Shown: positions 1-37,979 of the stretch, piece after piece
Layout: every line of letters starts with the position of its first letter
How positions within the stretch are numbered: position 1 is the first letter of the stretch
Source: a virus
Virus record (IMG/VR): IMGVR_UViG_3300017913_000351
Span: 1 to 37,979 of that record
Length of the DNA: 37,979 nucleotides
Strand: one strand, 5' to 3'
Translations under genes and position numbers: made by a program
Notes under the pieces: generated by a model
What the model was told of the DNA's origin: nothing
The model's input: the letters and a program-made list of their open reading frames with translations, nothing else
Databases searched by the model: none

Positions 1-141
1 CCGGTCGTCGGTGACGCTAAAGGATTCGCTGAGGCGCGTGATGCGTTCGCTGAAGGTGATTATGGTGAGGCAGCGCTGTTAGGTGGCTTGGGCGTGCTTG
101 GCCTTGTACCGATGCTAGGCGACGTAGCAGCCGGTGCTATC
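1..141. repeat. Terminal direct repeat copy 1, identical to 37839..37979. Interpreted as the contig-end overlap of a circular or circularly permuted genome.
   Basis: Base-by-base reading shows 1..141 equals 37839..37979. The repeat lies inside an open reading frame. Confidence 0.95.
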
Positions 142-1131
142 AAGGGTGCTATGAGCACTGCAGCAGCTCCGATGCGTCAGATCAACCCTAAGTTCTCGAA
201 GCAGATAGAAGGCAGTAATAACCGCAAATTTGATCAAAAACGCGGAGAGGGTATCGATTTCACCGTAGAAGATCGTCCGCTAGAGATTCCGAGCGAGACA
301 CTTTCTTTGGCAGACTTTGAGGGCAGGCCCTATATGTTTGGTCAGTCAGATCGATCGCGTGCAGGCGGTATTCTGACGCAGGTTGGTGGTGCAGATATCA
401 CGCCGATTGATTTGCGTGGCGGTCGAGACTTTATGTTTGATGCGCCATCTCAGGGCATGGTCTGGGCATCAGCACCTGACGTGGTGAACAACATGAGCAA
501 GCAAGCGCAGAGGCTAAAAGACACTTATGGGCAAGATCCGATATTCCTGCCTTACATGATGCAGCCAACTGGGATCGACTTCTCTACGTTCCCCTTGGAT
601 GCAATGATCAATACAGCCCGTGCTGGTATGTCGAAGACCAATATCAAAAAGCTCGATTCCCGCATCCGTAAGGTACTTCCAGAATGGAAGGGCGTTGCAG
701 ATCCAACAGCTAATTACGCGTTCCGCACGGCGACCGGCGACCAACGGAAAGCAATACAGAAAATGATGGATATGGAGTTTAGGGACGTACCCGGCGGCAT
801 GTCGCAGGCGGAAGCTAGGGTCGTGTCGACTGATCCTGCACAGCTAGTCGACGAGGGCGGCATCGTCACAAACGTCGGATTGATCGATACGAGCAGGCCT
901 CTGGTTTATGACAGCGGACACCCAACATATATTCGCGGGCTACCCGGTGAGGGCCTCGGCCGACTAGAGACTCCTGTGACGATCTTCCCTCAATCTCGAT
1001 TGCGCGGTCGTGATATCAGCGACAACCCCACTGATAAACAGCGCGGCGATGCGTTGCGCTCAATGTCGATGAGTCCAGAGGTACAGGAGGGGCTAATCGA
1101 TGAAGAGTTTCTCCGGGCATATTACGACTAG
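1..1131 (+). CDS. C-terminal part of the wrap-around 689-aa virion-associated protein, continuing from 36900..37979. Positions 1..141 duplicate 37839..37979. It carries the end of a pre-toxin-TG-like motif and a ~330-aa domain of unknown function.
   Basis: Codon phase is continuous through the overlap: 36900 and 37839 are both codon starts, and 37839 corresponds to position 1. The stop is TAG at 1129..1131. Track ORF 88..1131 is only the part downstream of an internal TTG. Confidence 0.85.
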   Translation, partial: PVVGDAKGFAEARDAFAEGDYGEAALLGGLGVLGLVPMLGDVAAGAIKGAMSTAAAPMRQINPKFSKQIEGSNNRKFDQKRGEGIDFTVEDRPLEIPSETLSLADFEGRPYMFGQSDRSRAGGILTQVGGADITPIDLRGGRDFMFDAPSQGMVWASAPDVVNNMSKQAQRLKDTYGQDPIFLPYMMQPTGIDFSTFPLDAMINTARAGMSKTNIKKLDSRIRKVLPEWKGVADPTANYAFRTATGDQRKAIQKMMDMEFRDVPGGMSQAEARVVSTDPAQLVDEGGIVTNVGLIDTSRPLVYDSGHPTYIRGLPGEGLGRLETPVTIFPQSRLRGRDISDNPTDKQRGDALRSMSMSPEVQEGLIDEEFLRAYYD

Positions 1132-1148
1132 CACTGAGGTATAATCGA

Positions 1149-1403
1149 ATGAAGCCAGCGAAAGGTAAGGCGAAGGTAAAGCGTACAGCCTCCGGTAAAA
1201 AGGTCTCATATGGACAAGCCGGTAAGGCTAAGGATGGCGGACCGCGAGTAAGGCCCGGAACCAGTAAAGGTAACAGCTATTGTGCTCGTTCCGCTGGTCA
1301 GATGAAGAAGCACCCGAAAGCGGCTGCCAATCCTAACTCACCGCTGCGTCTTTCTCGTAAGCGCTGGAAGTGTTCTGGCACGAAGTCTAGGAGCAAGAAA
1401 TGA
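1149..1403 (+). CDS. Hyper-basic small protein (84 aa), possibly an internal or DNA-associated virion protein.
   Basis: SD-like tgaggt lies about 9 nt upstream. About 30% of residues are K/R. Motifs SYCARSAG and SPLRLSRKRWKC are recalled from small basic proteins of marine phages. The stop overlaps the next ATG (ATGA). Confidence 0.7.
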   Translation: MKPAKGKAKVKRTASGKKVSYGQAGKAKDGGPRVRPGTSKGNSYCARSAGQMKKHPKAAANPNSPLRLSRKRWKCSGTKSRSKK

Positions 1404-1504
1404 AGAAGAAAGGCTTTAAACCATGCGCAGGCTGCACTAGCCCGCAATCATGCCGTAACCGCGGCTCATGTCGAAAGCGAGGTTCAAAAGGCTATGCCAA
1501 GTAA
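1400..1504 (+). CDS. Candidate 34-aa basic, Cys-rich micro-protein.
   Basis: Below the track size cutoff. ATGA-coupled to 1149..1403. Translates as MKKKGFKPCAGCTSPQSCRNRGSCRKRGSKGYAK. It competes with an alternative reading, frame-0 readthrough of the TGA at 1401. Confidence 0.3.
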   Translation: MKKKGFKPCAGCTSPQSCRNRGSCRKRGSKGYAK

Positions 1505-1652
1505 GCGAGGTCTATATGCAAACATTCATGCGAAACGTAAGAGAATTAAAGCGGGCTCTGGCGAAAAAATGCGCAAAGCTGGTAGCAAAGGCGCACCTAC
1601 TGCTAAGCAATTTAAGGCTGCGGCTAAAACAGCTAAGAAGAAGCGTAAGTAA
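1494..1652 (+). CDS. Hyper-basic 52-aa protein with a GLYANIHAKRKR motif.
   Basis: Below the track cutoff. The motif is recalled from many small phage/virus proteins. Its TAA overlaps the ATG of the next gene (TAATG at 1650..1654). Preferred over track ORF 1468..1665. Confidence 0.55.
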   Translation: MPSKRGLYANIHAKRKRIKAGSGEKMRKAGSKGAPTAKQFKAAAKTAKKKRK

Positions 1653-2275
1653 TGGCACTAAGTAACTATACTGAGCTTAAGAGCACTATTGCTGACTTTT
1701 TGAACAGGGACGATCTCACGAGCATCATCCCGGCGTTCATTGAGCTGGCCGAGGCGCAAATGAATCGCGATGTACGGCACTGGCGCATGGAAACGCGCTC
1801 TGTGGGTGACGTAGACAGCGAGTACAGTGCGCTGCCGACTGACTGGATAGAGACCATTAGTCTGCACGTAAACGGCGATGGCACCTCTACGCTCAACCTA
1901 GCAAGCCGGGAAGCGATTGCTAACCGTCGCGCTAAGACTGAAGATGAAAGCGGCCGTCCGAGGCTGTATTCACACGCTGACGGCTCGATCGAATTGTTCC
2001 CGACGCCAGACAAGACATATGAGATAGAGCTGCTGTATTACGCAAAGCTAGACGTTCTCAGCTCTAGTAATGCGACCAACTGGTTACTCGATGAGGCCCC
2101 GGACGTTTACTTGTACGGTGCGTTGATTCACAGCGCCCCCTACCTGCAGGAAGACGCAAGAGCTGGCACATGGGCGTCTATGTACAGTGCTGCAGTGCAA
2201 AAGCTCAATGCGGCCTCGAAGGCTGCACAAATGAGCGGGACCGGGCTTAGATTAAACGTGAGAGGCTTAGGATGA
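1652..2275 (+). CDS. Putative head-tail adaptor or virion structural protein (207 aa).
   Basis: N-terminal pattern NYTELKSTIADFLNRDDL..IPAFIELAEAQMNR and C-terminal NWLLDEAPDVYLYGAL resemble a conserved phage adaptor-like family, recognised from memory. Translationally coupled on both sides. Confidence 0.5.
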   Translation: MALSNYTELKSTIADFLNRDDLTSIIPAFIELAEAQMNRDVRHWRMETRSVGDVDSEYSALPTDWIETISLHVNGDGTSTLNLASREAIANRRAKTEDESGRPRLYSHADGSIELFPTPDKTYEIELLYYAKLDVLSSSNATNWLLDEAPDVYLYGALIHSAPYLQEDARAGTWASMYSAAVQKLNAASKAAQMSGTGLRLNVRGLG

Positions 2276-2687: not shown

Positions 2688-2987
2688 ATGGCGACGATTG
2701 TTACAAGGTCAGGTAAGGGTGCTGCTCTGACGCATACAGAGCTGGACGCTAACTTTACTAACCTTAACACTGCAAAGCTGGAGTCATCCGATCTGGCTGG
2801 CTATGGCAAGACATTCTCTCAATCGACTGCCCCGGCGGCAGCAGATTCGAGTGAAGGCAATCTTTGGTACAAGACTGATACCGAAGATCTCTATGTATAC
2901 CGAGAGGTATCACAGAATGTATTCAATTGGGTGATTCTCTCAACTGGTACAGGTAACTCAGACACATTAGATGGAGGCTCATACTAA
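2688..2987 (+). CDS. Short fibre-like protein (99 aa).
   Basis: The N-terminal motif GAALTHTELDANFTNLN is typical of podophage fibre N-termini. It ends in DTLDGGSY. Its TAA overlaps the next ATG. Confidence 0.6.
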   Translation: MATIVTRSGKGAALTHTELDANFTNLNTAKLESSDLAGYGKTFSQSTAPAAADSSEGNLWYKTDTEDLYVYREVSQNVFNWVILSTGTGNSDTLDGGSY

Positions 2988-4519
2988 TGACCCAGACTAT
3001 CAAGATCAAACGATCCACGGGGTCATCGGCCCCATCAACATTGGCGCAAGGTGAGCTTGCTTACTCGAAAGACGGTAACAAGCTCTTTATTGGTGACCCG
3101 GCGGCGGTCAACACGCCGATACAAATCAACAAAGGCAAGATTGAGGCTATCGATACCTCAGCGGCCGATGTCTTGCAGGTCGATGGTGACAACGAATTAG
3201 CTGGAGTAGATGCAGGTAATGCGGATGCAATTGTCTTTTGGGATGACAGTGCCAGCAAGTTAACCTACATGACGCCAACGAACCTGTTGGATTTTGCCAG
3301 CCTCAACACGACAGACGACGTCACCTTCAATGATTTGACAGTGACCGGAAATCTGACGATCACAGGCGATATCGACTCGTACAACGTCACAAACCTCAAT
3401 GTTCAAGATAAAACCATCACGGTAAACGAAGGCGGCACTGAAGCGGGTAGTGACGGCTCTGGGCTCATTGTTGACCGAGGGACCGCGGACGACGCATTCG
3501 TTAAGTGGGATGAAACGGATGGTCAATTTAATTTCAGTGACGGCATACAGGTAGCGACACAAACGGTCATTTCCGATTCCGGTCGTCATTATGCGTCAGA
3601 CGGTACTGACGTAAAGGCCGCATATGGCTTTGATAGTAGTTCGAGCACAGGTCTTAGCTACGGCTCCAGCGGCAACCGTATTAAGTTCCTGTCGGGCGGC
3701 GCTGTGCGTGCATACATTCAGACGGGCACTGATAACCCGCAAACTGATACGTTCTATGTAGATGGTCGATCTACATTCACTGATCAGATTGCTGTAACCG
3801 GCGATGGTAATTCGGGGAATTGGAAGTCGGCATACGATTGGGGTAACCACGCTTCTGCGGGCTATCTTACAAGCGTAAGCTTCAGTGATATTGATGATGG
3901 TTCTGTTTTGTTATCGACAGAAACCTTTTCTGATAGCGATTCACAGCTTATGTCTGCCGCGGCGATTGATGACCGCATTCAGTCATACGGCTACACAACA
4001 AACGTAGGCGATATTACTGGTGTAACGGCTGGCACAGGTCTCTCAGGTGGTGGTTCGTCTGGTAGCGTCACATTGGCAGTTGATCTGTCAGAGCTAACGG
4101 ACATGACTGCGGATGTTAACTCATCGCAAGACGAGCTTATCCTTTTGGACAACGGCGCTGACCGACGTAAAAAGTTCAACGAGATCCCAATCAATGCCTT
4201 CCGTACCAGCGGTGCTAATGATCTTGAGTTTGAAGACAACTTTTTAAAGCTCAACCAAACATCAACCGTTACCAGTCAGAACGGCGGTCTTTACGTTGCA
4301 CGATCAGGCAGTAACCAAGATGCTGTTTTATTCTGGGATGAGTCACAAAGTAAGTGGAAGTTCGGTACAGAGGGACTCTCTAACTCCGTGGGTATTGGTG
4401 ATATTACTCAGATAGAGATTACCTCTAGCGATGGCAGTATTAGTGGTACTGGCACCACGAACAGCGGTGATGCATCATTCGACCTTGAGGTCGCATCTAT
4501 CGACGGCGGCACGTACTAA
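2987..4519 (+). CDS. Tail fibre protein (510 aa).
   Basis: The N-terminus TIKIKRSTGSSAPSTLAQGELAYSKDGNKLFIGD is a fibre anchor motif, paralogous to the N-terminus of 4532..10324. Ser/Thr/Gly/Asp-rich. Ends in IDGGTY. Confidence 0.75.
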   Translation: MTQTIKIKRSTGSSAPSTLAQGELAYSKDGNKLFIGDPAAVNTPIQINKGKIEAIDTSAADVLQVDGDNELAGVDAGNADAIVFWDDSASKLTYMTPTNLLDFASLNTTDDVTFNDLTVTGNLTITGDIDSYNVTNLNVQDKTITVNEGGTEAGSDGSGLIVDRGTADDAFVKWDETDGQFNFSDGIQVATQTVISDSGRHYASDGTDVKAAYGFDSSSSTGLSYGSSGNRIKFLSGGAVRAYIQTGTDNPQTDTFYVDGRSTFTDQIAVTGDGNSGNWKSAYDWGNHASAGYLTSVSFSDIDDGSVLLSTETFSDSDSQLMSAAAIDDRIQSYGYTTNVGDITGVTAGTGLSGGGSSGSVTLAVDLSELTDMTADVNSSQDELILLDNGADRRKKFNEIPINAFRTSGANDLEFEDNFLKLNQTSTVTSQNGGLYVARSGSNQDAVLFWDESQSKWKFGTEGLSNSVGIGDITQIEITSSDGSISGTGTTNSGDASFDLEVASIDGGTY

Positions 4520-4531: not shown

Positions 4532-7500
4532 ATGTCCCAGACGATTAAGCTAAAGCGGGGTACTACTACCCCGACTACTAGTAACATTGTAAGCGGCGAG
4601 GTGGCGATTGATACGTCGGCTCAGAAGCTTTACATCAATGACGCTGGGACAATCAAGGAGATCGGGGGCGGCTTAGGCTCAATCTCGGTCTCTGACGTTC
4701 CTAACCTACCTGCCTCTAAGATTACGAGCGGCACGTTTGCAGCGGCGCGTATACCTAATATATCTGGTGCAAAGATTACGTCCGGGACGGTAGCAGCGGC
4801 TCGCATTGCTAATTTAGCCGCATCTAAGATCACATCCGGTACGTTTGCAACGGCTCGTATACCAAGCTTGGCGGCAAGCAAAATCACGTCTGGCACTTTT
4901 GACGCCGCACGCATACCTAGCCTAGCGGCAAGCAAGATCACGTCCGGTACATTTGATGCGGCCCGTATTCCTACGTTAGACCAGTATGTAAAAACTGCTG
5001 GCGACACAATGTCTGGAAGGCTCGTCATTGAAGACTCTAGCGGCGGAGACGGCAGTTGGACGGGCGGAATATTAATTGACAATACGGCCACCGATGCTGG
5101 CGAACCAGCAATTGCCTTCCAAAACTCCGCAATGGGGTCTAATTACTGGATTGTCGGATCTAATCAAGACAACGAACTGCACTTTTCTTATGGCACCGTA
5201 TTCCAAGATGGCAATACAAAACTAAACTTAAAAAGTGACGGTAAGCTGGGCGTAGGGACAGGTGCGAATGCTTTAACTCACAAGTTTAACGTTACAGGCA
5301 CATCACTTTTAGACGGAGCGGTGCATGTAGCAGAGCATCTGTACCATGCCGATGACACAAACACGTATATCCGGCTTGAGAACGATCAAATCTCAATCGT
5401 CGCGGGAGGAACGACTAAGTTCCACAGCAGTAACACCTACCTAACAACGTCATCTACCATTAATGCCGACACAGTAGATAACCTACATGCGACTTCGTTC
5501 CTGCGCTCTGATGCGAACGATACGGCTACCGGGCAAATAACTATCAGCAATACTGCTGACGCTCAACTAAAACTAACGTCCCCCAGTTCTTGGACAGGCA
5601 TTGGGTTCAATGACTCTGCCGCCGCAGGCTATCAATACATCTGGCACAACGGTGAGCACGGCACATTTGCTATTGGTGGTGGAGGCTCTAACGTATCCGG
5701 CAAAAAACTACACGTAGATGGTGGTATGACCGTCGGTGCCAACATGGACAGCACGGCTACAAACGCAAATGGCTTAACTGTTGAGCAAGACGTAACAGCT
5801 AAGGTTTTTGTAGATAGAGACAATTCTGCGTACTACGTCAATCCAGCAGGTTTACAGCGCCAAGACCAGATTTATGCTAACTGGGTAGGCATCGGCACAA
5901 GCAACAACACGTCGGGAAGCTACAAGCTCAACATGGGCGGCTCCATTGACATGAACAACAACCACGTTCATTACATCAATGAAGCACATTTTAACGGTGG
6001 CTCACGATTTAAAAGTGATGGTGGCGAAGGTCTAATCCTTAGATCTGGTAGTGCCAGTGTTTCTAAAATACGGCTTGGTACGAACAGTGATACGGCTCGT
6101 GGGTACTTGTATGCGAACAGTTCTAATGAAATTGGTTTATTAGACAGTGACCACCAGTGGGCGATCCGGCACTCACGCGACAACTACACTGAATTCCGTA
6201 TCAACAACAGTGTTAAGGCGTACCTGAACAACGACCAGTTCTACCACACGTCTAGCATCCGTTCGCCAATTTTTTACGACAGAAACAACACCAACTACTA
6301 CTTCCACGGTGACAGTGAGTCGCGTCTTGCAAACGCAAGGGTGGAGCGTTACTTCCAGTGGGCGCATGGTAAGCCGACCAACAACCTCGGCGACCCAACT
6401 GTCACTGAAATGGCGTTGTTTGATGAGCAGTTCAACAACAAGACGCTCGAACACGCTACAAGCAAAGTAACCTTCTGGCGACAGCAAACCAGTAGCAGTT
6501 CGTGGACTGAGTACACAGCAGTATCAGACAGTGAAAAGAAACAACTACTCCGAGGCGCTGCCACCTCTAGCCTGTCGATCCCTAATCTTGACTACAAGTT
6601 CCGCATCGAGGTAGACGCAGACGGATATACTTTTGCTAACGCTCTGTATATGTACTGGTCTAGCAACAGCCACAACACGCAGGTTCATATCTACAAGCGA
6701 CGGTGTTCTGATAACGCGTGGATTCAACATACCAGTTCTAGCACCACTGTAAGTAGCTGGCCCGGACATTTGTACCTGCCGTTTTCCAACATCCCGTGGC
6801 ACGAGACAAACACAACGTCTACAGGTCACTTTAACCGGATTCGTATTGAATTTATCCCCAACTGGTCTGGTCACGCTGATTACGGCGACCGTGTTATTAA
6901 CTTGTACAAGATGCAGATCTGGGGCGGCTACCCAGCAGGACGCAGGACGCCGTACTACTACGATGAGAACTTGCAATACTTCTTCCCGCAGAATATTCAG
7001 GCGTACCGCTACTATGACCGTGACAACACGTCTAAGTATGTAGACCCAGCAGGTACATCTGAACTAAGTCACTTGAATGTGGCAAACAACATCACCGCCA
7101 GCGGCAACATTACGGGCGCTCGTGCAGCGTTTGGCGGCACAGCGCTTGGCTCTGGCGAAGACGTTCGTTTAGGCGGCATCCGTGGCAGGTTCTCTAACGA
7201 GCTGATTCACCTTTATAACCGAGTTAATATCGGCTACCCGAGCGGATGGGCTGGGCAAGGTGCACCTAACTACGGGCTGTCAACGCACGGCGGCGCTCAG
7301 TTTAACGTCGGAAATGTGAGCGGTGCTCCATTCACCTTTAATGGGCACACTATCTGGCATGCTGGTAATGATGGTTCCGGTTCCCAGTTGGATGCCGACT
7401 TGCTAGACGGGTTACAGGGTTCCTTCTACTTTAAGTCCTATACAAACAATAATGGCGGCTGGTCTCAGTCCAACAGAAATTTCAGTGTAAGAACTGGCGG

Positions 7501-10324
7501 TAATGCCGCTGGTCTACACATGGAAGAGTCTGACGGTACGTTTGCATTCCAGATATATGGCGACGGTGGAACGTATGGATTCTTAGATGGCGAGTGGGCT
7601 AACTGGGATATTAAGAAAACGAGAAACGGTACATTCCACGTTGACGAAGGCAGCGGTCTAAAGCGTGTTCTTAACGAAGCCAACTGGTCTAGCTATATAA
7701 CAATCCCGACTTCATTACCTGCCAACGGCGGTAACGCAGATACAGTTGATGGGCAACATGCTTCTGCTTTTGCCCCTGCGGGCGGGTCGCTAAATACTAA
7801 CTTCAACGTAAACAAGCTGACCGCAGACTCAGGGGCGAATATCGTTTCTACGTCGGCGAACCCGTTCCGTTGGCAACGAAGTGGAACTGGGCAAACAGGT
7901 CAAGACGATAACGTCACCGTGTTTGTAGATGACTCAAACATCTACTTTACACATAACAATGACGCCGATGGAGACGCATCGAGCTTCCACTTCCGCTACA
8001 CCGCTGGTGGTAATGCGGTCACGATGACCACGATCAATTCGGATTATTTGCATCACTCCTCTGATATCCGTGCGCCCATTTTCTACGACACAGGGAATAC
8101 CGGCTACTACGCAGACCCCAACGGAAACTCACGCTTGTACCGTAGTCACCTTGACTACATAGGTGTCGGCGCTGGTGCAAACAGCTCAGGTTCCTACCGC
8201 ATCAACATGGGCGGTTCGATTGACATGAACGCCAACAACATAGACTACGTTAGTCAGTTGCACTTCAACGACAACGTCCGGTTCTATGATGACGGTAACG
8301 ACAATTACCTTAACTTTAAGTACGGCGACGGCAACTACGGCGGCATCGTAGTTTATAACGGAGGCGGTACTCGCAAGGGGTACTTGTACGCCGACAACAG
8401 CGGCTTTGGTCTGCTAGACAACGACGGTCATTGGGCGCTTCGTACTCAGACAGGCACAAACCCTCTTGAGTTACGCTGTGACAACAACGTCGAATTTCAA
8501 GTCTTTAACTCGTACACGTTGTCGCCCGGATCGTCTCGTGCGCCTGTCTTTTACGATAGTAACAACAGTAGCTACTACGCTAATCCAGCGTCAACGTCTA
8601 ACTTTAATGCCCTAAACGTAGGCGGTAGTCCTGTATGGACAAGTGGTAACGACGGTCCCGGCTCTGGGTTAAATGCCGACCTTTTAGACGGACTTGACCT
8701 GCATACTGGACGGAACAACAACGCAAATAAAGTTGTCCGAACTGACGGTAATGGCTACATACAGGCTGGTTGGATCAATACAACTAGTGGTGCGACAACT
8801 AATACATTAGACAGAATTTACGCTTCTAATGATGGATACATTCGTTACGTAACACCTGCGACTCTAGGCTCGCAACTTAGTTCGCATATCAATTACAACA
8901 ACATCCAGAACAAGCCAACCATACCAGACACGAGCAACCTTGTTACTACCAATACTGCTCAGACAATCTCTGGTGCTAAGACGTTTACTGCAAACGTAGG
9001 TGTAAGCGGAAACATTAGCGCAAACTTCTATGCCTTTAACGGGGCGTACGTTAATGCTACGGCTGATGTACGTGCACCGATTTATTACGATAGAAACAAC
9101 ACAGCTTTTTACATACACGCTGACAGTGAATCGGTACTAGGAAACGTAAGAGCAAACGATTTCCGCTTGTCATCAGGTAATGGCAAAGGTGTACGTTTCT
9201 GGAACAGCAACTCATACAAAATCTATATGTCGTCTACTGGCGATAGTAGCTGGGGCGGACGCGCACCTTACGAGTCTACGTCTGACTACAATATGTACTT
9301 CCGCATGACAGGAGGCACTAACCGTGGTTTTGTGTTCCGTAGCGATACCACCAACGTAGCAGGTATTGACTCTTCCGGTAACTTCAACACAAGCGGAATT
9401 GTTAAAACGGGCAATGGCGCGGCTAGTGCACCAGCTTATTCGTTCACTGCTGACTACGACAGCGGAATGTTTAGTATAGGCAGTAACGCAGTAGGGTTCT
9501 CTACCGGTGGTACTCAAAGATTTAAGATTAACGCTAACGGTCTGTTGTTGACCGGCACTTCATCTCTGTACGTCAACGGTCAGCAGACGATTACGAATAC
9601 TCGCGACATTATGAATGTCGTCAACTACCAGAACACCGATGGTCACATGCAGTTGCACCGCACCGGCGCGGCTCCTTTGATTATTAATCGAAAAGGAACT
9701 ACTGGGTCTTCTGGTACGAGTCGCGGAGAGATACTTAACTTTAAGTCTGCATCTACCAAGATTGGACGCATCGGTTATGCACAGCCTTATGGCGGTTTGC
9801 TTTATTTTGCTACAGGCAACACGTCAGGTTACGGCGTAGGTGTTTATCACTTTTCAACTTCATCAGACCTTCGCCCAGTAACCCATACTGGAGCAAACAA
9901 CGACAATGCTATGGACTTGGGCGCTACGTCTGCTCGATACGATGACGTATACGCTACTAACGGTACGATTCAAACGTCAGACCGTAATGAAAAACAGGAC
10001 ATACAGGCACTAACTGACGCTGAGACACGAGCAGCTACTGCATGTAAGGGGCTGATCCGTAGATTCCGTTGGGTAGACTCTGTTGCAGCAAAAGGCGATG
10101 ACGCTCGTTATCACTTCGGTGCCATCGCACAAGACGTTGAGGCAGCGTTTATCGCCGAGGGACTAGACGCCGGGGACTATGGTCTCTTTATACGAAGCAC
10201 ATGGTGGGAGCACGAGGGGCACTCGTACCCAACAGCAGAGGCAGCACCTACTGGGGCCGTCGAGAAGACTCGGCTGGGTATCCGATACAATCAACTCTTT
10301 GCATTCATTATCAGCACCCTTTAA
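4532..10324 (+). CDS. Giant tail fibre (1930 aa) with an N-terminal anchor, 5 x 18-aa repeats, duplicated modules, a putative carbohydrate-binding insertion and a C-terminal S74 intramolecular chaperone.
   Basis: Single uninterrupted ORF. Fibre motifs include ADTVDGQHASAF, DADLLDGL and R[AS]P[IV]FYD.NNT.YY. The C-terminus reads TSDRNEKQDI...RYHFGAIAQDVE. Confidence 0.9.
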   Translation: MSQTIKLKRGTTTPTTSNIVSGEVAIDTSAQKLYINDAGTIKEIGGGLGSISVSDVPNLPASKITSGTFAAARIPNISGAKITSGTVAAARIANLAASKITSGTFATARIPSLAASKITSGTFDAARIPSLAASKITSGTFDAARIPTLDQYVKTAGDTMSGRLVIEDSSGGDGSWTGGILIDNTATDAGEPAIAFQNSAMGSNYWIVGSNQDNELHFSYGTVFQDGNTKLNLKSDGKLGVGTGANALTHKFNVTGTSLLDGAVHVAEHLYHADDTNTYIRLENDQISIVAGGTTKFHSSNTYLTTSSTINADTVDNLHATSFLRSDANDTATGQITISNTADAQLKLTSPSSWTGIGFNDSAAAGYQYIWHNGEHGTFAIGGGGSNVSGKKLHVDGGMTVGANMDSTATNANGLTVEQDVTAKVFVDRDNSAYYVNPAGLQRQDQIYANWVGIGTSNNTSGSYKLNMGGSIDMNNNHVHYINEAHFNGGSRFKSDGGEGLILRSGSASVSKIRLGTNSDTARGYLYANSSNEIGLLDSDHQWAIRHSRDNYTEFRINNSVKAYLNNDQFYHTSSIRSPIFYDRNNTNYYFHGDSESRLANARVERYFQWAHGKPTNNLGDPTVTEMALFDEQFNNKTLEHATSKVTFWRQQTSSSSWTEYTAVSDSEKKQLLRGAATSSLSIPNLDYKFRIEVDADGYTFANALYMYWSSNSHNTQVHIYKRRCSDNAWIQHTSSSTTVSSWPGHLYLPFSNIPWHETNTTSTGHFNRIRIEFIPNWSGHADYGDRVINLYKMQIWGGYPAGRRTPYYYDENLQYFFPQNIQAYRYYDRDNTSKYVDPAGTSELSHLNVANNITASGNITGARAAFGGTALGSGEDVRLGGIRGRFSNELIHLYNRVNIGYPSGWAGQGAPNYGLSTHGGAQFNVGNVSGAPFTFNGHTIWHAGNDGSGSQLDADLLDGLQGSFYFKSYTNNNGGWSQSNRNFSVRTGGNAAGLHMEESDGTFAFQIYGDGGTYGFLDGEWANWDIKKTRNGTFHVDEGSGLKRVLNEANWSSYITIPTSLPANGGNADTVDGQHASAFAPAGGSLNTNFNVNKLTADSGANIVSTSANPFRWQRSGTGQTGQDDNVTVFVDDSNIYFTHNNDADGDASSFHFRYTAGGNAVTMTTINSDYLHHSSDIRAPIFYDTGNTGYYADPNGNSRLYRSHLDYIGVGAGANSSGSYRINMGGSIDMNANNIDYVSQLHFNDNVRFYDDGNDNYLNFKYGDGNYGGIVVYNGGGTRKGYLYADNSGFGLLDNDGHWALRTQTGTNPLELRCDNNVEFQVFNSYTLSPGSSRAPVFYDSNNSSYYANPASTSNFNALNVGGSPVWTSGNDGPGSGLNADLLDGLDLHTGRNNNANKVVRTDGNGYIQAGWINTTSGATTNTLDRIYASNDGYIRYVTPATLGSQLSSHINYNNIQNKPTIPDTSNLVTTNTAQTISGAKTFTANVGVSGNISANFYAFNGAYVNATADVRAPIYYDRNNTAFYIHADSESVLGNVRANDFRLSSGNGKGVRFWNSNSYKIYMSSTGDSSWGGRAPYESTSDYNMYFRMTGGTNRGFVFRSDTTNVAGIDSSGNFNTSGIVKTGNGAASAPAYSFTADYDSGMFSIGSNAVGFSTGGTQRFKINANGLLLTGTSSLYVNGQQTITNTRDIMNVVNYQNTDGHMQLHRTGAAPLIINRKGTTGSSGTSRGEILNFKSASTKIGRIGYAQPYGGLLYFATGNTSGYGVGVYHFSTSSDLRPVTHTGANNDNAMDLGATSARYDDVYATNGTIQTSDRNEKQDIQALTDAETRAATACKGLIRRFRWVDSVAAKGDDARYHFGAIAQDVEAAFIAEGLDAGDYGLFIRSTWWEHEGHSYPTAEAAPTGAVEKTRLGIRYNQLFAFIISTL
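4706..4975 (+). repeat. Five tandem 54-nt (18-aa) coding repeats, consensus LAASKITSGTF.AARIP.
   Basis: Fibre aa 59-148 form 5 consecutive units. The copies differ mainly at synonymous positions. Confidence 0.9.
9977..10324 (+). other. Peptidase S74-type intramolecular chaperone auto-processing domain. Predicted cleavage is N-terminal to Ser1816.
   Basis: The motif QTSDRNEKQDIQAL (Ser-x-x-x-x-Lys dyad context) is followed by FRW...YHFGAIAQDVEAA, as in endosialidase and fibre C-terminal chaperones. Confidence 0.75.
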
Positions 10325-14998: not shown

Positions 14999-15496
14999 AT
15001 GTCAGGTGGCAAGGGCGGAAGCCAAAGCACAAAGGTCAAAATACCGCAGTACATCGAAGACGCTGCACGTCGGAACCTAGCGCGCGCAGAGGAGCTGGCA
15101 GAGGTCGGTTATATGCCGTACTACGGCCCTGAGGTCGCTGCGTTCAATCCAATGCAAACGCAAGCGTTTCAGAATACTGCAAATGCTGCGGCGGCGTTTG
15201 GCCTTGGGGCACCGATGGATGTAATGGCTGGCATGCCGCAGGCGCAAGACTTCGGTAACGGCATGATGGGCTACGGCAGTGGAGATCTTTTCCAAGGTGC
15301 TGTCGATCAGTTCGCTGCTAACAACCCGGCGCAGTACAACCAATATACGCAAAACTTTAGCGGTCCCTTAGCGAGTAACGCACAAGGGCCCTACGGACCA
15401 TATAGCCCTGTGCCCGGTGGCGGCGGCAAAGGTGGTCGTATGCCCACGGGACCATTGGGTGGCGGGATGCCACCCGGATCAGGAGGACAAGTCTAA
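14999..15496 (+). CDS. Gly-rich virion or internal protein (165 aa).
   Basis: SD aagga. Conserved-looking N-terminus IPQYIEDAARRNLARAEELAEVGYMPYYGPEVAAFNPMQ. The TAA overlaps the next ATG. Confidence 0.65.
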   Translation: MSGGKGGSQSTKVKIPQYIEDAARRNLARAEELAEVGYMPYYGPEVAAFNPMQTQAFQNTANAAAAFGLGAPMDVMAGMPQAQDFGNGMMGYGSGDLFQGAVDQFAANNPAQYNQYTQNFSGPLASNAQGPYGPYSPVPGGGGKGGRMPTGPLGGGMPPGSGGQV

Positions 15497-35309: not shown

Positions 35310-35612
35310 ATGGCGCAAACACGAAAGCAAAAGATCAGCGAAGATCTGCAATGGGGTGCTCGACGAGCTGAAGAGCTAGAAGAGCTAAAAACTCAAGTAT
35401 TTGATTCTCAAAAGAAAGTACGTGAGCTGGACCCTGAGGAAAAGTATTTTTACAAGCGGCTTAAGCAGCAAGAGGTACTACAGGCTAGTTACTTCAGGCT
35501 GCTCAATAAGTATTGGCCCGACGTAAAGTCTATCGAAGCAGACCTAACTAGCAGCGATGGCTCAATGAGCCCGCCCACGGTGATCGAGCTTGTCGCAAAA
35601 ACTCTCGATTGA
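35310..35612 (+). CDS. Putative terminase small subunit (100 aa), assigned by position only.
   Basis: SD gagga. Coiled-coil protein immediately upstream of terL and overlapping it. Confidence 0.4.
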   Translation: MAQTRKQKISEDLQWGARRAEELEELKTQVFDSQKKVRELDPEEKYFYKRLKQQEVLQASYFRLLNKYWPDVKSIEADLTSSDGSMSPPTVIELVAKTLD

Positions 35613-36870
35613 ACTACCGCCAAAGCTAACCGAGCTGTTTGCCGGGGAGGCACGTTACCGCTGTTCATACGGTGGCCGCGGCTCAGCCAAGACACGTAGC
35701 TTCGCGCTGATGACCGCTGTCTGGGGTATGCGCTGGGGCATGGCCGGGAAGCAGGGCCAAATACTCTGCGCCCGGGAGCACCTCAATTCGCTCGATGAAT
35801 CATCGATGGAAGAGGTGAAGTCAGCGATACGGTCTGTCCCTCAGCTCGCTGCCTACTACGAGATCGGTGAGCGGTACATTCGATCAAAGGATGGCCGGGT
35901 TACCTATGTCTTTGCCGGGTTACGGCGCAACCTCGACAGCATCAAGTCTAAGGCACGTATCCTGCTCTGCTGGGTAGATGAGGCCGAGACGGTGAGCGAG
36001 ACGGCGTGGCAGAAGCTCATTCCCACAGTGCGAGAGGATGACTCGGAGATCTGGGTTACGTGGAACCCGGAAAACAAGCACAGCCCTACGCACCATAGAT
36101 TCCGTGAGGTGACACCAGAAGGGTGCAAGATCGTCGAGATGAATTGGCGAGACAACCCGTGGTTCCCTGATGTTCTTGAGCGAGAACGGCTTGAGGACAA
36201 AGAGAAGCGCCCGGATGTTTACGAGCATATCTGGGAGGGTGACTTTAAGGTCTTCTCAGAAGGCGCGTATTACACGATAGAGATGGCTAATGCGTTGCAC
36301 GATGGTCGCATAGACCGGGTGCCATACGAGCGCTCTGTGGGCGTTGTGACGGCGTGGGATCTGGGGGTGGGTGACAGCACGGCAATTTGGTTTGCGCAGT
36401 TTGTCGGGCCCGAGGTGCGCGTCATCGACTATTACGAAAACGCTGGTGTGGGTCTGGACCACTATGCACGCGTGCTGCAGGAAAAAGGCTACATCTACGA
36501 CCACCACATCTTGCCGCACGATGTTCGGGTGCGAGAGCTGGGTAGCGGCCGGTCTCGATTAGAGGTGCTCGACAACCTCCGGGTGTCCCCGGTAGAGATA
36601 GCGCCTCAGCTAAACGTAGACGATGGCATACAGGCGGTGCGGTCTATGCTGGACCTTTGCTATTTCGACAAGGAAAAGTGCGAGAAGGGTATCGATTGCC
36701 TGCGCCAGTACCGGCGGCAATACAATGAGACCATGATGGTGTGGGCGGAGAAGCCATTGCACGATTGGACGTCTCACGCTGCAGACGCATTCCGCTACCT
36801 TGCCATCGGTTACCGGGAAACCTCCGACTGGGGCCAGCCCATTAGGCGAAATCTAAAGGGCATTGTTTGA
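35590..36870 (+). CDS. terL: Terminase large subunit (426 aa), TTG start.
   Basis: Walker A-like YGGRGSAKT about 27 aa from the start and Walker B ILLCWVDEAE. Size and C-terminal nuclease-like region fit PBSX/Terminase_3-like TerL. The first in-frame ATG lies beyond Walker A, so the TTG at 35590 (SD-like ggtga upstream) is required. Confidence 0.88.
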   Translation: MSQKLSIELPPKLTELFAGEARYRCSYGGRGSAKTRSFALMTAVWGMRWGMAGKQGQILCAREHLNSLDESSMEEVKSAIRSVPQLAAYYEIGERYIRSKDGRVTYVFAGLRRNLDSIKSKARILLCWVDEAETVSETAWQKLIPTVREDDSEIWVTWNPENKHSPTHHRFREVTPEGCKIVEMNWRDNPWFPDVLERERLEDKEKRPDVYEHIWEGDFKVFSEGAYYTIEMANALHDGRIDRVPYERSVGVVTAWDLGVGDSTAIWFAQFVGPEVRVIDYYENAGVGLDHYARVLQEKGYIYDHHILPHDVRVRELGSGRSRLEVLDNLRVSPVEIAPQLNVDDGIQAVRSMLDLCYFDKEKCEKGIDCLRQYRRQYNETMMVWAEKPLHDWTSHAADAFRYLAIGYRETSDWGQPIRRNLKGIV

Positions 36871-36899: not shown

Positions 36900-37979
36900 A
36901 TGCTTCGCAATCGCGCATCTGGCATTCTTGAAGAGCTATTTAGCTCTGCCAATTCGACGGAAGAGCTTATAAGTGAGTTGACGTATGACCGGGGATATCC
37001 GGGAGAGGTCGCTGAGAAGATCGCTTATGGTGAGCTTGATATGCGGCCCGGAGCTATCGCAGAGCGTAGTGCAGATTTTACTAAGGGCGACCCTACTGTT
37101 TATTTCCACGGCGGGTATATGCCTGCTAATCAATTTCGTGGCGACGGCGATTTAGTCTTCGCGACTCCAGATCCTTTTCTGGCTAACACCTATATACCAA
37201 ATAATGGGGCATTTAACGCGCTGAGTGGACAGCTTTACCCGTTACGCATAGACACGTCTGATTTTTTAAGGACAGACGCGCGCGGCGATAACTGGGGAAT
37301 GATAGAGCTGAACGACATTCTAGGCCCTGATGACAGTGTGTTATATCGTGGAGAGCGTGGCCGGTACTATGAGACCGATCAGCTCGGCGACATGGCAAGG
37401 CATAATAATTTCCCGGGCATTTTTATCGACAACGTAGTTGATGTCGGCGATAACTACCGAATAGCTAATAAAGCACTTCAAGATGCGCAGCACCCACTGC
37501 TTACACGATTTCAGTCGCTAGAAGATGGGTCAGATATAGTTGCTGTCAATGATCCTACTAAAGTTCGTTCGCAGTACGCCGCCTTCGATCCCGAATACAA
37601 AGGGCCTAATCTTCTCGGGGCAACTGCAGCCGCTGGTGTAGGTCTTGGTGCAATGGGTGCGTCAAATGACGCCATGAGCGCAGAAGAGCGCTACGGCACC
37701 ATAGAGCCCTATGAGCCCGGGATGGTCGAAGGTGCAGTTCAGAGTGTTGCTCAGTTCTTCAAAGACGCCGGGCTGACTGACTCCGATTACACCGCAAATC
37801 AAATGGCTGCGAGTCTATCTGATTTGGCAGATTTCACTCCGGTCGTCGGTGACGCTAAAGGATTCGCTGAGGCGCGTGATGCGTTCGCTGAAGGTGATTA
37901 TGGTGAGGCAGCGCTGTTAGGTGGCTTGGGCGTGCTTGGCCTTGTACCGATGCTAGGCGACGTAGCAGCCGGTGCTATC
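36900..37979 (+). CDS. N-terminal 360 aa of the wrap-around 689-aa protein: a putative ART-like (polyvalent-protein-type) domain, Gly-rich hydrophobic segments, and the start of a pre-toxin-TG-like motif.
   Basis: ATG 36900 has a GGAGG SD. The frame is open to the window end, so the ORF is absent from the track. Motifs are VYFHGG, LVFATPDPFLANTY, IVAVNDPTKVRSQYAAFDP and DFTPVVGDAKGFAEA. Confidence 0.85.
   Translation, partial: MLRNRASGILEELFSSANSTEELISELTYDRGYPGEVAEKIAYGELDMRPGAIAERSADFTKGDPTVYFHGGYMPANQFRGDGDLVFATPDPFLANTYIPNNGAFNALSGQLYPLRIDTSDFLRTDARGDNWGMIELNDILGPDDSVLYRGERGRYYETDQLGDMARHNNFPGIFIDNVVDVGDNYRIANKALQDAQHPLLTRFQSLEDGSDIVAVNDPTKVRSQYAAFDPEYKGPNLLGATAAAGVGLGAMGASNDAMSAEERYGTIEPYEPGMVEGAVQSVAQFFKDAGLTDSDYTANQMAASLSDLADFTPVVGDAKGFAEARDAFAEGDYGEAALLGGLGVLGLVPMLGDVAAGAI
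37839..37979. repeat. Terminal direct repeat copy 2, identical to 1..141.
   Basis: Exact identity read directly from the sequence. Confidence 0.95.

What the first reader, a model, noticed from the sequence alone, without database searches (positions are those of the whole stretch)
1..1131. Pre-toxin-TG-like motif followed by an unknown 330-aa C-terminal module: polymorphic-toxin architecture in a virion gene
The junction region reads DFTPVVGDAKGFAEARDAFAEGDYGEAALLGGLGVLGLVPMLGDVAAGAIKG. This closely resembles the PT-TG (pre-toxin TG) module, with its [DN]xIPxVGxxK...E...G.D..(T)G.......A..G signature. In polymorphic toxins such as LXG and MuF-type phage toxins, that module separates a trafficking domain from a variable C-terminal toxin. 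Here it is preceded by Gly-zipper-like hydrophobic stretches (GATAAAGVGLGAMGA). It is followed by about 330 aa with no motif I can place (GRPYMFGQSDRSRAGGILTQVGG...DLRGGRDFMFD...HPTYIRGLPGEG). This C-terminal module is a candidate novel payload or effector injected by the phage. No obvious immunity-like gene follows; the next ORFs are hyper-basic peptides.
Basis: inference. Interest (0 to 1): 0.8.

Follow-up and report, generated by a model that had tools for sequence, protein, structure and literature searches.

The report
Modular phage effector with swappable cassettes
A marine phage gene beside the DNA-packaging gene encodes a multi-part protein whose parts are swapped among closely related phages; it carries a short hydrophobic motif also found in bacterial contact-dependent toxins, plus an unnamed 320-residue domain whose predicted fold matches no solved structure.

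Summary
The motif and the ~330-aa C-terminal region are real. However, the window is a circular contig (141-bp end overlap) and the ORF wraps: the full gene is 36900..37838 + 1..1131 (689 aa). It sits between the large terminase and the head-tail adaptor of a 37.8-kb SU10-like marine podophage. No Pfam or PHROG model hits the protein, so PT-TG (PF14449) membership is not met. Only sub-threshold hits to the first third of that model occur, in relatives. The motif is homologous to a post-VENN segment of CdiA toxins (hhalign 97%). Its ~400 carrier clusters are mostly polyvalent-type effectors (ART-PolyVal, LPD23, GNAT, PBECR5). Cassette swapping is confirmed: phages with ~90% identical terminase carry at least eight architectures at this locus. 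No immunity gene co-varies with the cassette. The C module models confidently (pLDDT 89), matches nothing in the PDB, and recurs only in uncharacterised phage proteins encoded near portal or terminase genes. Best reading: a virion-delivered polyvalent effector, not a classical toxin-immunity system. The C module's activity is unknown.

The parts
36900..37838 (+). 5' part of the gene gpX (aa 1-313). ATG at 36900 with GGAGG 8 nt upstream, 29 nt after the TerL stop.
   Evidence: The same 29-nt spacing is seen in many related loci.
1..1131 (+). 3' part of gpX (aa 314-689 plus the stop codon at 1129-1131). This is the region the finding was given for.
37839..37979 (.). Exact repeat of window 1-141. 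It marks a circular or terminally redundant contig and is not a second gene copy.
36900..37067 (+). Leader, aa 1-56 (M..R..GILEEL...GYP.EVAE.IA.G.LDMRP.A..ER). Nine residues are invariant across 20 diverse homologues. Role unknown; possibly a virion-targeting or docking segment (inference).
   Evidence: invariant M1 P34 A38 E39 I41 G44 L46 M48 R56. The leader is absent from some locus variants.
37068..37571 (+). Divergent ART-PolyVal-like domain, aa 57-224. His69 is retained in the strand-1 FHGG. Phe87 replaces the strand-2 Tyr of canonical members. Asp181 is the conserved candidate for the strand-5 acidic residue.
   Evidence: gpX itself has no Pfam hit. It aligns with homologues in which the same region hits PF18760 (26 of 50). 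The model core has pLDDT 70-92. Foldseek gave only non-significant hits, among them three ADP-ribosyltransferases.
37572..37685 (+). J1 hinge, aa 225-262: the invariant AAFDPEYKG.N.LG followed by the Gly/Ala zipper LLGATAAAGVGLGAMGA. It is the first recombination boundary.
37686..37829 (+). J2, aa 263-310: helical segment EPYEPGMVEGAVQSVAQFFKD...DYTANQMAASLSDLA. It travels together with J3.
   Evidence: In P0058, J2+J3 form the N-terminus of the protein.
1..147 (+). J3, the PT-TG-like motif, aa 314-362. Its first three residues (DFT, aa 311-313) are at 37830-37838. It consists of two tandem units of hydrophobic-P-x-hydrophobic-G-D plus a helix: DFTPVVGDAKGFAEARDAF and GLVPMLGDVAAGAIKG. It is the second recombination boundary.
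61..153 (+). The most hydrophobic stretch of the whole protein, aa 334-364 (YGEAALLGGLGVLGLVPMLGDVAAGAIKGAM). Kyte-Doolittle 19-residue mean reaches 1.78. Candidate membrane-interacting helix.
   Evidence: Sub-threshold DUF4112 match over the overlapping stretch aa 341-368.
172..1128 (+). C module, aa 371-689: a globular alpha/beta domain with no name in Pfam or PHROGs. Invariant residues: G421 G436 G453 G454 W468 A469 S470 M500 T509 M515 P548 R562 H620 Y623 G629 G633. Nearly invariant residues include D430, D506, K563 and R586.
   Evidence: (pLDDT 89, pTM 0.87).
35590..36870 (+). Large terminase subunit, the upstream neighbour.
1149..1403 (+). 84-aa hyper-basic ORF (pI 11.6), the downstream neighbour. 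Its family follows the modular gene whatever the cassette, so it is not an immunity gene.
1494..1652 (+). 52-aa hyper-basic ORF (pI 11.9), member of phrog_16028 (function unknown).
1652..2275 (+). SU10-type head-tail adaptor, the other boundary of the locus.

Best explanation
gpX is a small member of the phage 'polyvalent protein' class. These are modular proteins encoded among late virion genes, and gpX is most likely packaged in the capsid and released into the host cell with the DNA at the start of infection.

It is built from five parts:
- a conserved 56-aa leader;
- a divergent ADP-ribosyltransferase-like domain of the ART-PolyVal type (His kept, strand-2 Tyr replaced by Phe, so possibly altered or inactive);
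- a Gly-rich hinge;
- a roughly 100-aa helical, hydrophobic junction whose core is two Pro-x-x-Gly-Asp units;
- a 320-aa globular C module of unknown biochemistry.

The gene sits at a recombination hot spot between the terminase and the adaptor. Modules are exchanged at two fixed boundaries, after the hinge and after the junction motif. Closely related phages therefore deliver different C-terminal activities: nuclease, metallopeptidase, DUF7178, or this C module.

The junction motif is homologous to a segment of the region of CdiA toxins that carries cargo across the target's inner membrane. I infer that it helps the ejected protein engage or cross the cytoplasmic membrane, or that it marks a flexible processing and hand-over point.

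Shown: the anatomy, the homologies, the modular exchange, the late-gene location, and the lack of a cassette-linked immunity gene. Inferred: packaging and ejection, the membrane role of the junction, and effector activity of the C module.
For: - Genome context: TerL, gpX, basic ORFs, SU10 adaptor, gp80 fibre. Portal, scaffold and major capsid protein are elsewhere. The same synteny is seen in relatives.
- Homologues carry hallmark polyvalent-protein domains. Of 50, 26 hit ART-PolyVal, 6 LPD23, 6 DUF6782, 4 DUF7178 and 1 PBECR5. P0027 also has a ParB-like segment.
- BLAST mapping shows three independently occurring modules.
- Locus survey of 80 IMG/VR contigs with TerL 67-91% identical: at least eight architectures.
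- Identities to gpX are mosaic at nearly constant TerL identity. L029 has ART 95% but C 33%. L019 has C 73% with a different ART. L066 has leader 81% and junction 76% but a different cassette.
- Junction: the phage profile scores 29.1 and 26.5 bits on CdiA post-VENN segments, against a maximum of 10.5 bits in 10,000 shuffles. hhalign gives 97.4% probability and 53% identity over 49 columns.
- There are 399 carrier clusters. A Pfam census of 124 of them gives ART-PolyVal 28, LPD23 9 and several GNAT-type acetyltransferases.
- The hydropathy maximum of the whole protein lies inside the motif. The junction is modelled at pLDDT 28-40, which matches what a 2025 preprint reports for PT-TG (pLDDT <70; 10.1101/2025.10.01.679605).
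- C module: confident model. It recurs inside giant multi-domain phage proteins and one annotated 'structural protein'. It also occurs as stand-alone proteins next to portal or terminase genes.
- Published framework: polyvalent proteins are encoded near virion genes and predicted to be injected with the DNA (PMC5512222). The region between VENN and the toxin in CdiA-CT is the cytoplasm-entry domain (PMC9424206).
Against: - gpX itself hits no Pfam or PHROG model. Its ART assignment is by transitive homology only.
- The N-module fold search gave no significant match, and the profile found nothing among PDB sequences.
- The canonical strand-2 Tyr is Phe in gpX, and some relatives have lost the His, so the ART may be inactive.
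- There is no direct evidence of packaging. The only 'structural protein' label is an unverified annotation of a 13%-identical fold match, and no paper supporting it was found.
- No module is present in every variant at the locus, so no single virion-targeting element can be named.
- The adaptor next door is itself only 46-71% identical among the surveyed phages. TerL identity therefore overstates genome relatedness.
- The CdiA entry-domain analogy rests on about 50 residues. gpX lacks the VENN motif and the Cys pair of such domains.
Confidence: 0.6

Rival explanations
1. Phage-borne polymorphic toxin in the strict sense. A conserved N-terminal trafficking part and a PT-TG pre-toxin module deliver a variable C-terminal toxin, and the C module is a new growth-inhibiting toxin.
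For: - The architecture is a constant N-terminal part, then a junction, then a variable C-terminus, and some cassettes are predicted nucleases or peptidases.
- The junction motif is shared with CdiA toxins.
- Relatives give sub-threshold PT-TG hits.
- The C module has invariant polar residues suggestive of a catalytic site: D430, S470, D506, R562, K563, H620, Y623.
Against: - No PF14449 hit for gpX or for any of its 50 homologues.
- None of 124 motif carriers has PT-TG, PT-VENN or LXG.
- No downstream gene co-varies with the cassette.
- The C module was not found in 185,579 cellular genomes by pattern scans. It is therefore not seen in bacterial toxin loci.
- The C module occurs without the motif more often than with it, and also occurs as a stand-alone protein.
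Confidence: 0.15
2. The C module is a virion-incorporation or head-internal structural domain, playing the role that MuF plays in other polyvalent proteins. It anchors the fused effector domains (here the ART) to the portal or capsid interior and is not itself a payload.
For: - Stand-alone C-module proteins are encoded directly after an SU10-type portal, after a P22-type portal, or between terminase genes and the portal.
- In P0027 the gene lies between portal and capsid.
- The module is fused to ART, ParB-like, acetyltransferase and PcfJ-like domains in giant proteins, as the literature describes for MuF (PMC5512222).
- One fold match is annotated 'structural protein'.
Against: - At this very locus the C module is replaced by a nuclease, a peptidase or other tails, while the rest of the gene and the phage stay similar. 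An indispensable anchor should not be exchangeable.
- No similarity to MuF or any head-protein family in Pfam or PHROGs.
- Its position within proteins varies; it is N-terminal in P0031.
- Many invariant polar residues suit an enzyme better than a scaffold.
Confidence: 0.2
3. A membrane-inserting component of the DNA-ejection apparatus. The hydrophobic junction anchors gpX in the host inner membrane as part of the conduit that podophages build, and the flanking domains are accessory.
For: - The only strongly hydrophobic segment lies in the junction.
- Sub-threshold matches to DUF4112 occur in 7 of 10 motif segments, one of them above the cut-off. That DUF4112 is a membrane-protein family is my recollection, not a tool result.
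- A motif subtype gives weak matches to the diphtheria toxin translocation domain.
- The gene is encoded in the structural module of a podophage.
Against: - The phage already has candidate ejection proteins elsewhere (phrog_4287 matches at 14999-16299, and large unknown ORFs just before the portal).
- Most variants at the locus lack the J3 segment.
- There is only one marginal transmembrane-like segment, and it contains Pro and Asp.
- The architectural turnover is atypical for a core ejection protein.
Confidence: 0.05

Closest known systems
Phage polyvalent proteins (Iyer, Burroughs, Anand, de Souza & Aravind 2017, J Bacteriol; PMC5512222)
   Same: It is a multi-domain protein encoded among late virion genes. 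Its homologues combine ART-PolyVal, LPD23, a zincin-like metallopeptidase (DUF6782), the PBECR5 nuclease, ParB-like and GNAT domains. Domains are extensively shuffled, and there is no immunity partner.
   Different: gpX is short (689 aa) and none of its own segments reaches any Pfam model. Its junction and its C module are not among the named polyvalent-protein domains in Pfam. That paper does not mention PT-TG or pre-toxin modules. No MuF domain is present.
PT-TG pre-toxin domain (Pfam PF14449) of LXG/WXG, T6SS and CDI polymorphic toxins
   Same: It sits between a conserved N-terminal part and variable C-terminal modules. The first unit, DF.P.VGD.KG..E, resembles profile positions 2-25. It is predicted with low structural confidence, as reported for PT-TG (10.1101/2025.10.01.679605).
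   Different: No HMM hit for gpX or its 50 homologues, and only sub-threshold hits (13-18.6 bits against a cut-off of 23.5) in some other carriers. The remaining two thirds of the PT-TG profile are never matched. The carriers are phage effectors, not secreted bacterial toxins, and there is no immunity gene.
Cytoplasm-entry region of CdiA-CT (the segment between VENN and the toxin), as in E. coli pJNE151685-1 CdiA and a Pantoea dispersa orphan CdiA-CT
   Same: About 50 residues are homologous (ADF.PVVGD.K.FAEA ... G.IP..GDVA...IK.A; hhalign 97%). In both cases the segment lies just upstream of an exchangeable C-terminal domain.
   Different: gpX has no VENN motif, no Cys pair and no haemagglutinin repeats. 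It has a 10-residue insertion between the two units. The entry function of this particular CdiA family has not been studied experimentally, as far as I could find.
T4 Alt and other virion-packaged ADP-ribosyltransferases
   Same: An ART-type domain encoded with structural genes and proposed to be injected with the DNA (analogy drawn in PMC5512222, section 'ARTs').
   Different: Alt belongs to the R-S-E clade, whereas ART-PolyVal is H-Y-D. gpX has Phe at the Tyr position. Packaging of gpX has not been shown.
MuF-fused phage toxins and MuF polyvalent proteins
   Same: A variable effector is fused to a conserved part in a head-module gene near the portal or terminase.
   Different: No MuF domain was detected. 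Here both ends of the protein are exchangeable.

Membership tests
PT-TG (Pfam PF14449) | Match to the family HMM at or above the gathering score (23.5 bits) | tested here: not met
   No hit for full-length gpX at E<=10. No hit for the isolated segment aa 280-380 at E<=10. None of 50 homologues hits at E<=1. None of 124 motif carriers hits at E<=0.01.
PT-TG (Pfam PF14449) | Conserved N-terminal loop motif of about 15 residues with Gly and Asp, reported to be more conserved than the TG itself (10.1101/2025.10.01.679605) | tested here: inconclusive
   Sub-threshold matches confined to profile positions 2-25 of 68 occur in 3 of 10 other carriers (18.6, 15.5 and 13.0 bits) and in two CdiA segments (13.9 and 11.5 bits). 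gpX's own unit has the same pattern by eye but gives no reported hit.
PT-TG (Pfam PF14449) | Located between a trafficking or constant region and a polymorphic C-terminal domain | tested here: met
   Module breakpoints fall directly after the motif. Four or more different C-terminal cassettes follow it in relatives.
Polymorphic toxin system | Cognate immunity gene immediately downstream that co-varies with the toxin domain | tested here: not met
   The same 79-84-aa basic ORF family follows the gene whatever the cassette: C, C+J3, DUF7178, LPD23-DUF6782 or other.
Polymorphic toxin system | N-terminal secretion or trafficking domain of a bacterial export system (LXG/WXG, VgrG/PAAR, Rhs, FHA repeats) | tested here: not met
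   None was found in gpX, in its 50 homologues or in 124 motif carriers.
Phage polyvalent proteins (PMC5512222) | Two or more unrelated domains in one polypeptide, drawn from the polyvalent domain network | tested here: met
   gpX has two globular domains plus the junction. Homologues sharing its modules carry ART-PolyVal, LPD23, DUF6782, PBECR5, DUF7178 and ParB-like domains. Caveat: gpX's own domains are below Pfam detection.
Phage polyvalent proteins (PMC5512222) | Encoded among late or virion genes of a phage | tested here: met
   It lies between TerL and the adaptor. Relatives lie next to terminase or portal genes.
Phage polyvalent proteins (PMC5512222) | Packaged in the virion and delivered into the host with the DNA | not testable with these tools
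   This needs virion proteomics or infection assays. The only hint is a 'structural protein' annotation on a distant fold match.
ART-PolyVal (Pfam PF18760) | Match to the family HMM at or above the gathering score (31.2 bits) | tested here: not met
   No hit for gpX. 26 of 50 homologues hit at E<=1 in the aligned region, mostly below the cut-off; P0048 reaches 35.0 bits.
ART-PolyVal (Pfam PF18760) | H (strand 1), Y (strand 2), D (strand 5) active-site configuration (PMC5512222, section 'ARTs') | tested here: inconclusive
   His69 lies in modelled strand 67-71. Phe87 lies in strand 86-89, where canonical members have Tyr. Asp181 is conserved after strand 173-180 but could not be assigned with certainty.
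ART-PolyVal (Pfam PF18760) | ADP-ribosyltransferase fold | tested here: inconclusive
   Foldseek against the PDB gave no significant match. CRM197 (E 1.1), EcPltA (E 3.4) and Arr (E 9.2) are among the weak hits.
CdiA-CT cytoplasm-entry domain | Follows a VENN cleavage motif; helical, usually with a Cys pair; needs a specific inner-membrane protein (PMC9424206) | tested here: not met
   There is no VENN motif upstream in gpX or in the 143 top carriers, and no Cys in the junction. Only the roughly 50-residue motif is shared. Receptor dependence is not testable here.
MuF / minor head protein (for the C module) | Match to the Phage_Mu_F model or to PHROG minor-head families | tested here: not met
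   No Pfam or PHROG hit for gpX or for six other C-module proteins.
DUF4112 (Pfam PF13430) | Match to the family HMM at or above the gathering score (23.3 bits) | tested here: not met
   gpX's segment scores 17.3 bits (E 0.0055) on its second Pro-x-x-Gly-Asp unit. 7 of 10 carriers give hits, and one (P0070) reaches 25.9 bits.

The most novel reading that the evidence does not exclude
The junction (two Pro-x-x-Gly-Asp units plus hydrophobic helices) is a portable membrane-translocation device shared by contact-dependent-inhibition toxins and phage-injected effectors. It would let proteins that a podophage ejects into the periplasm reach the cytoplasm, and it would double as the recombination joint at which effector cassettes are exchanged. 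The C module would be a new enzyme fold that acts on the host early in infection.
Probability: 0.2. Interest if true: 0.8.

Novelty: new variant of a known kind. Interest (0 to 1): 0.58.

Why it matters
- If the reading is right, abundant marine podophages keep a single locus beside the terminase gene where they swap injected effector domains. That would be a compact natural system for studying how phages diversify their early anti-host weapons.
- The junction motif links two fields that have not been connected in the papers I could check: phage polyvalent proteins and the pre-toxin/entry regions of CDI toxins. It offers a short, testable candidate element for protein passage across the inner membrane.
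- The C module is a confidently modelled 320-residue domain with a set of invariant polar residues, no match to any solved structure and no family name. It is widespread next to phage portal and terminase genes, which makes it a clear target for structure determination and biochemistry.

Tried and rejected
- **gpX as the portal.** It follows TerL, but a clear SU10-type portal lies at 19884-21941. Rejected.
- **LPD23 as the PT-TG-like motif.** In P0034 and P0048, LPD23 lies just downstream of the motif, not on it. Rejected.
- **Word-indexed database search with the 65-aa motif profile.** It returned only five short proteins and missed known members, so it was uninformative.
- **tblastn of the motif against GenBank phages:** no match.
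- **Full gpX against GenBank phages:** one weak hit only, Phage C72C1.
- **Motif profile against PDB sequences:** nothing, and no diphtheria toxin. The diphtheria T-domain signal belongs to another motif subtype (P0039/P0054 type) and is weak. I keep it only as a lead.
- **Profiles against PDB sequences:** nothing for the C module or the N module.
- **Foldseek against the PDB:** nothing significant for either model.
- **PHROGs:** nothing for gpX or for six further C-module proteins.
- **Genome scans for the C module in GTDB species representatives.** Retrieval is pattern-limited, so absence is not proven.
- **Literature support for the 'structural protein' label of Flavobacterium phage elemoC_14-1A:** none found.
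- **3D clustering of invariant C-module residues.** Model coordinates are not exposed, so this could not be checked.
- **Downstream-ORF picker.** It takes the first start codon giving at least 40 aa, so 'cluster 1' there is probably a spurious frame. The conclusion rests on cluster 0.
Full report
**1. What is in the sequence**

Frame +1 of window 1-1131 is open from the first base and ends at a stop at 1129-1131. It begins at PVVGDAKG.

The last 141 bases are an exact copy of the first 141. The window is therefore a circular or terminally redundant contig with 37,838 unique bp. The finding's ORF is the 3' part of one gene: ATG at 36900, preceded by GGAGG and lying 29 nt after the previous stop, to 37838, then 1 to 1131. 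I call this 689-aa product gpX.

**2. Genome context**

The window is a podophage of the SU10/GP4 structural type. Its genes include:
- large terminase at 35590-36870;
- gpX;
- two or three hyper-basic small ORFs at 1149-1652;
- SU10-type adaptor at 1652-2275;
- GP4 gp80-like fibre protein;
- long fibres, including a 1930-aa protein with an S74 chaperone domain;
- candidate ejection proteins;
- SU10-type portal at 19884-21941;
- scaffold;
- SU10-type major capsid protein.

gpX is therefore a late-module gene, but it is not the portal. The nearest cultured phage by portal is Octadecabacter Antarctic DB virus 2, at 46% identity. An 81%-identical homologue with the same synteny comes from a TARA Oceans sample.

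**3. Direct family tests**

Full-length gpX hits no Pfam-A family at E<=10 and no PHROG at E<=1.

**4. Homologues and modules**

Fifty homologues were found, all from metagenomes. GenBank phages gave only one weak hit, Phage C72C1. BLAST mapping, a local profile search and alignments divide gpX into five parts:
- **Leader, aa 1-56.** Nine residues are invariant.
- **N module, aa 57-224.**
- **Hinge J1, aa 225-262.** It has the invariant AAFDPEYKG.N.LG followed by a Gly/Ala zipper.
- **Junction J2+J3, aa 263-366.**
- **C module, aa 371-689.**

Each module occurs without the others:
- The N module and junction occur with LPD23 + DUF6782 metallopeptidase (P0034, P0048), with DUF7178 (P0005, P0020) or, without J2/J3, with the PBECR5 nuclease (P0035).
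- The C module occurs after other N-termini, before an ART domain (P0031), or alone.

In a Pfam census of the 50 homologues, 26 hit ART-PolyVal in the region aligned to gpX's N module, and none hits PT-TG.

**5. The N module**

It is a divergent ART-PolyVal-type domain by transitive homology. Iyer et al. define the active site as His in strand 1, Tyr in strand 2 and Asp in strand 5 (PMC5512222). In gpX:
- His69 sits in modelled strand 67-71.
- Phe87 sits in strand 86-89, where canonical relatives have Tyr.
- Asp181 is the conserved acidic candidate.

Some relatives have lost the His. The model core is fair (pLDDT 70-92). Foldseek gave no significant PDB match. Three ADP-ribosyltransferases appear among the weak hits. 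Whether the domain is active is open.

**6. The junction motif**

- **Conservation.** It is conserved as DF.P.[VI]G.[AV]KG..E..D......G.A......G..G.IP.G. By eye it is two tandem units of hydrophobic-Pro-x-hydrophobic-Gly-Asp followed by a helix.
- **Physical properties.** It contains the only strongly hydrophobic stretch of gpX (aa 334-364, Kyte-Doolittle 19-residue mean up to 1.78). It is modelled with very low confidence (pLDDT 28-40). A 2025 preprint reports the same behaviour for PT-TG, whose function it calls unresolved (10.1101/2025.10.01.679605).
- **Link to CdiA.** A permissive tblastn against plasmids gave weak hits, most of them inside CdiA-type toxin genes. About 60 residues after VENN, an E. 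coli CdiA and a Pantoea orphan CdiA-CT read GADFVPVVGDIKSFAEAQSA..AAVGIIPGAGDVASKTIKAAE.
- **Statistics.** The phage profile scores 29.1 and 26.5 bits on these segments, against a maximum of 10.5 bits in 10,000 shuffles. hhalign gives 97.4% probability and 53% identity over 49 columns, with a 10-residue deletion in CdiA.
- **PT-TG score.** Pfam calls the CdiA segments PT-TG only below threshold (13.9 and 11.5 bits against a cut-off of 23.5), on profile positions 2-24 of 68.
- **Isolated motif segments from ten carriers.** gpX gives no PT-TG hit. Three others give sub-threshold hits to positions 2-25. Seven give hits to DUF4112 on the second unit, one of them above the cut-off.
- **Family size and carriers.** An exhaustive HMMER search found 399 carrier clusters at E<=1e-3. 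The motif usually sits at residues 30-110 of 200-600-aa proteins, with no VENN upstream. A Pfam census of 124 carriers gives ART-PolyVal 28, LPD23 9, DUF3990 5, several GNATs and PBECR5 1. It gives no PT-TG, PT-VENN or LXG.

Conclusion: the motif is a real, widespread module of phage-type effectors. It is homologous to a post-VENN segment of some CDI toxins and lies in the twilight zone of PT-TG (first unit) and DUF4112 (second unit). It is not a member of PF14449 by the family's own test. In CDI toxins the region between VENN and the toxin is the cytoplasm-entry domain that carries cargo across the inner membrane (PMC9424206). That is the basis of my inference that the junction has a membrane role. 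The inference is not shown.

**7. The C module**

- **Conservation.** A 19-sequence alignment shows invariant G421, G436, G453, G454, W468, A469, S470, M500, T509, M515, P548, R562, H620, Y623, G629 and G633. Nearly invariant residues include D430, D506, K563 and R586.
- **Structure.** AlphaFold2 gives a confident alpha/beta model (pLDDT 89, pTM 0.87).
- **Solved structures.** Nothing matches in the PDB by sequence profile or by fold (best E 0.72, TM about 0.1).
- **Viral predicted structures.** In BFVD it matches 17 proteins at E<=1e-3. Fourteen are unnamed or uncharacterised phage proteins. The other three are large phage proteins labelled 'PcfJ-like', 'NAT_SF domain' and 'structural protein'.
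- **Stand-alone forms.** A profile search found further stand-alone 370-490-aa versions, none with a name.
- **Gene position.** These genes lie right after an SU10-type portal, between the small terminase and HNH/large terminase, after a P22-type portal, between portal and capsid, or between terminase genes and the portal in cultured Phage C72C1.
- **Other libraries.** No PHROG covers any of them. Pattern scans of 185,579 cellular species genomes found none.

The module is therefore a common, unnamed domain of phage head or packaging modules with no solved-structure match. Its activity is unknown. Its invariant polar residues suggest an enzyme, while its gene positions equally suit a virion-incorporation domain.

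**8. Cassette exchange, tested systematically**

Eighty IMG/VR loci with TerL 67-91% identical were fetched. The gene next to TerL was classified with module HMMs. Architectures found among complete genes directly after TerL:

| Architecture | Loci |
|---|---|
| leader-ART-J1-C | 17 |
| leader-ART-J1-J3-C (gpX type) | 12 |
| tandem leader-ART-J1 duplication, then C | 2 |
| J3 + LPD23 + DUF6782 | 3 |
| leader-ART-J1-J3 + LPD23 + DUF6782 | 3 |
| leader-ART-J1-J3 + 610-aa DUF7178 tail | 2 |
| leader-ART-J1 + unlabelled tail | 3 |
| C alone | 1 |

Further points:
- One incomplete gene (L053) has leader-ART-J1 followed by PBECR5.
- Where a short ORF follows TerL, the modular gene is often one gene further on.
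- Identities to gpX are mosaic. L029 has ART 95% but C 33%. L019 has C 73% with a different ART. L066 has leader 81% and junction 76% but no C module.
- Breakpoints fall after J1 (..APEEAEA) and after J3 (..KG).
- Caveat: the adaptor is only 46-71% identical among these loci, so TerL identity overstates how close the genomes are.

**9. Immunity**

The 79-84-aa basic ORF family downstream (window 1149-1403) follows the modular gene whatever the cassette. It therefore does not behave as a cognate immunity gene. This, and the absence of bacterial trafficking domains, argues against a classical polymorphic toxin system. It fits the polyvalent-protein model, in which the producing cell is already doomed.

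**10. Verdict**

Three points fall short:
- The PT-TG label fails the HMM test.
- The N-terminal ART-like domain and the wrap-around were missed.
- The C module is not a private payload of this gene.

The best-supported account is a virion-delivered polyvalent effector at a recombination hot spot (confidence about 0.6). The packaging, the membrane role of the junction and the activity of the C module are inferred, not shown.

As far as the two key papers show, three things are new:
- the link between a CDI-toxin/PT-TG-like motif and phage polyvalent proteins;
- the hypervariable terminase-adjacent locus in this marine phage group;
- an unnamed, widespread domain with no match among solved structures.

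Noticed in passing
window 37839-37979 and 1-141: The two ends of the window are an exact 141-bp repeat. The contig is circular or terminally redundant, with 37,838 unique bp. Any feature near either end has to be read across the junction.
   Followed up: yes
window 1149-1403, 1400-1504, 1494-1652: There is a cluster of hyper-basic small ORFs (84 aa, pI 11.6; 52 aa, pI 11.9; and a doubtful 34-aa Cys-rich one). The 52-aa ORF belongs to phrog_16028 (E 3e-28, function unknown). The 84-aa family is conserved downstream of the modular gene in relatives, whatever the cassette. They may be DNA-associated internal proteins.
   Followed up: partly
L013, L015, L065 (IMG/VR relatives): Some relatives carry a tandem duplication of the whole leader-ART-J1 unit before the C module (863-896 aa). 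The leader therefore travels with the ART domain as one unit.
   Followed up: partly
gpX aa 1-56 (window 36900-37067): The leader is strikingly conserved (invariant M1 P34 A38 E39 I41 G44 L46 M48 R56), even where the following ART domain is of a different subtype. Profile positions 15-33 of the N-module alignment, the conserved GYPE.VAERIA.G.L stretch of the leader, weakly resemble an EF-Ts segment (E 0.8), which is probably chance. The leader could be a virion-targeting signal.
   Followed up: no
P0039, P0052, P0054 and other carriers (motif subtype FVPGVGDVTGLAADVDMY..DPESRN): Three of the 124 motif carriers gave weak matches to the diphtheria toxin translocation (T) domain (best E 2e-5). 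P0054, of the FVPGVGDVTG subtype, gives E 0.04. The gpX-type profile does not hit diphtheria toxin among PDB sequences.
   Followed up: partly
window 4532-10324 and 2987-4519: A 1930-aa fibre protein ends in an S74 intramolecular-chaperone domain. The 510-aa fibre-like protein before it has a weak, sub-threshold Mtd_N-like N-terminus.
   Followed up: no
window 16631-19887: Two large ORFs (450 and 635 aa) lie just upstream of the portal. They have no Pfam family; the 635-aa ORF matches phrog_5880 (unknown function). Together with the phrog_4287 'DNA ejection protein' matches at 14999-16299, they are candidate internal or ejection proteins.
   Followed up: no
L002 (E. coli plasmid pJNE151685-1 CdiA) and L003 (Pantoea dispersa plasmid): These CdiA-CT regions combine VENN, a Cys pair (ENC.G.SA.AC), the phage-like Pro-x-x-Gly-Asp motif and a C-terminal toxin (DUF4258 in E. 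coli). In Pantoea the motif-bearing ORF is a separate 'VENN motif pre-toxin' gene followed by an endonuclease gene. I found no experimental study of this apparent entry-domain family.
   Followed up: partly
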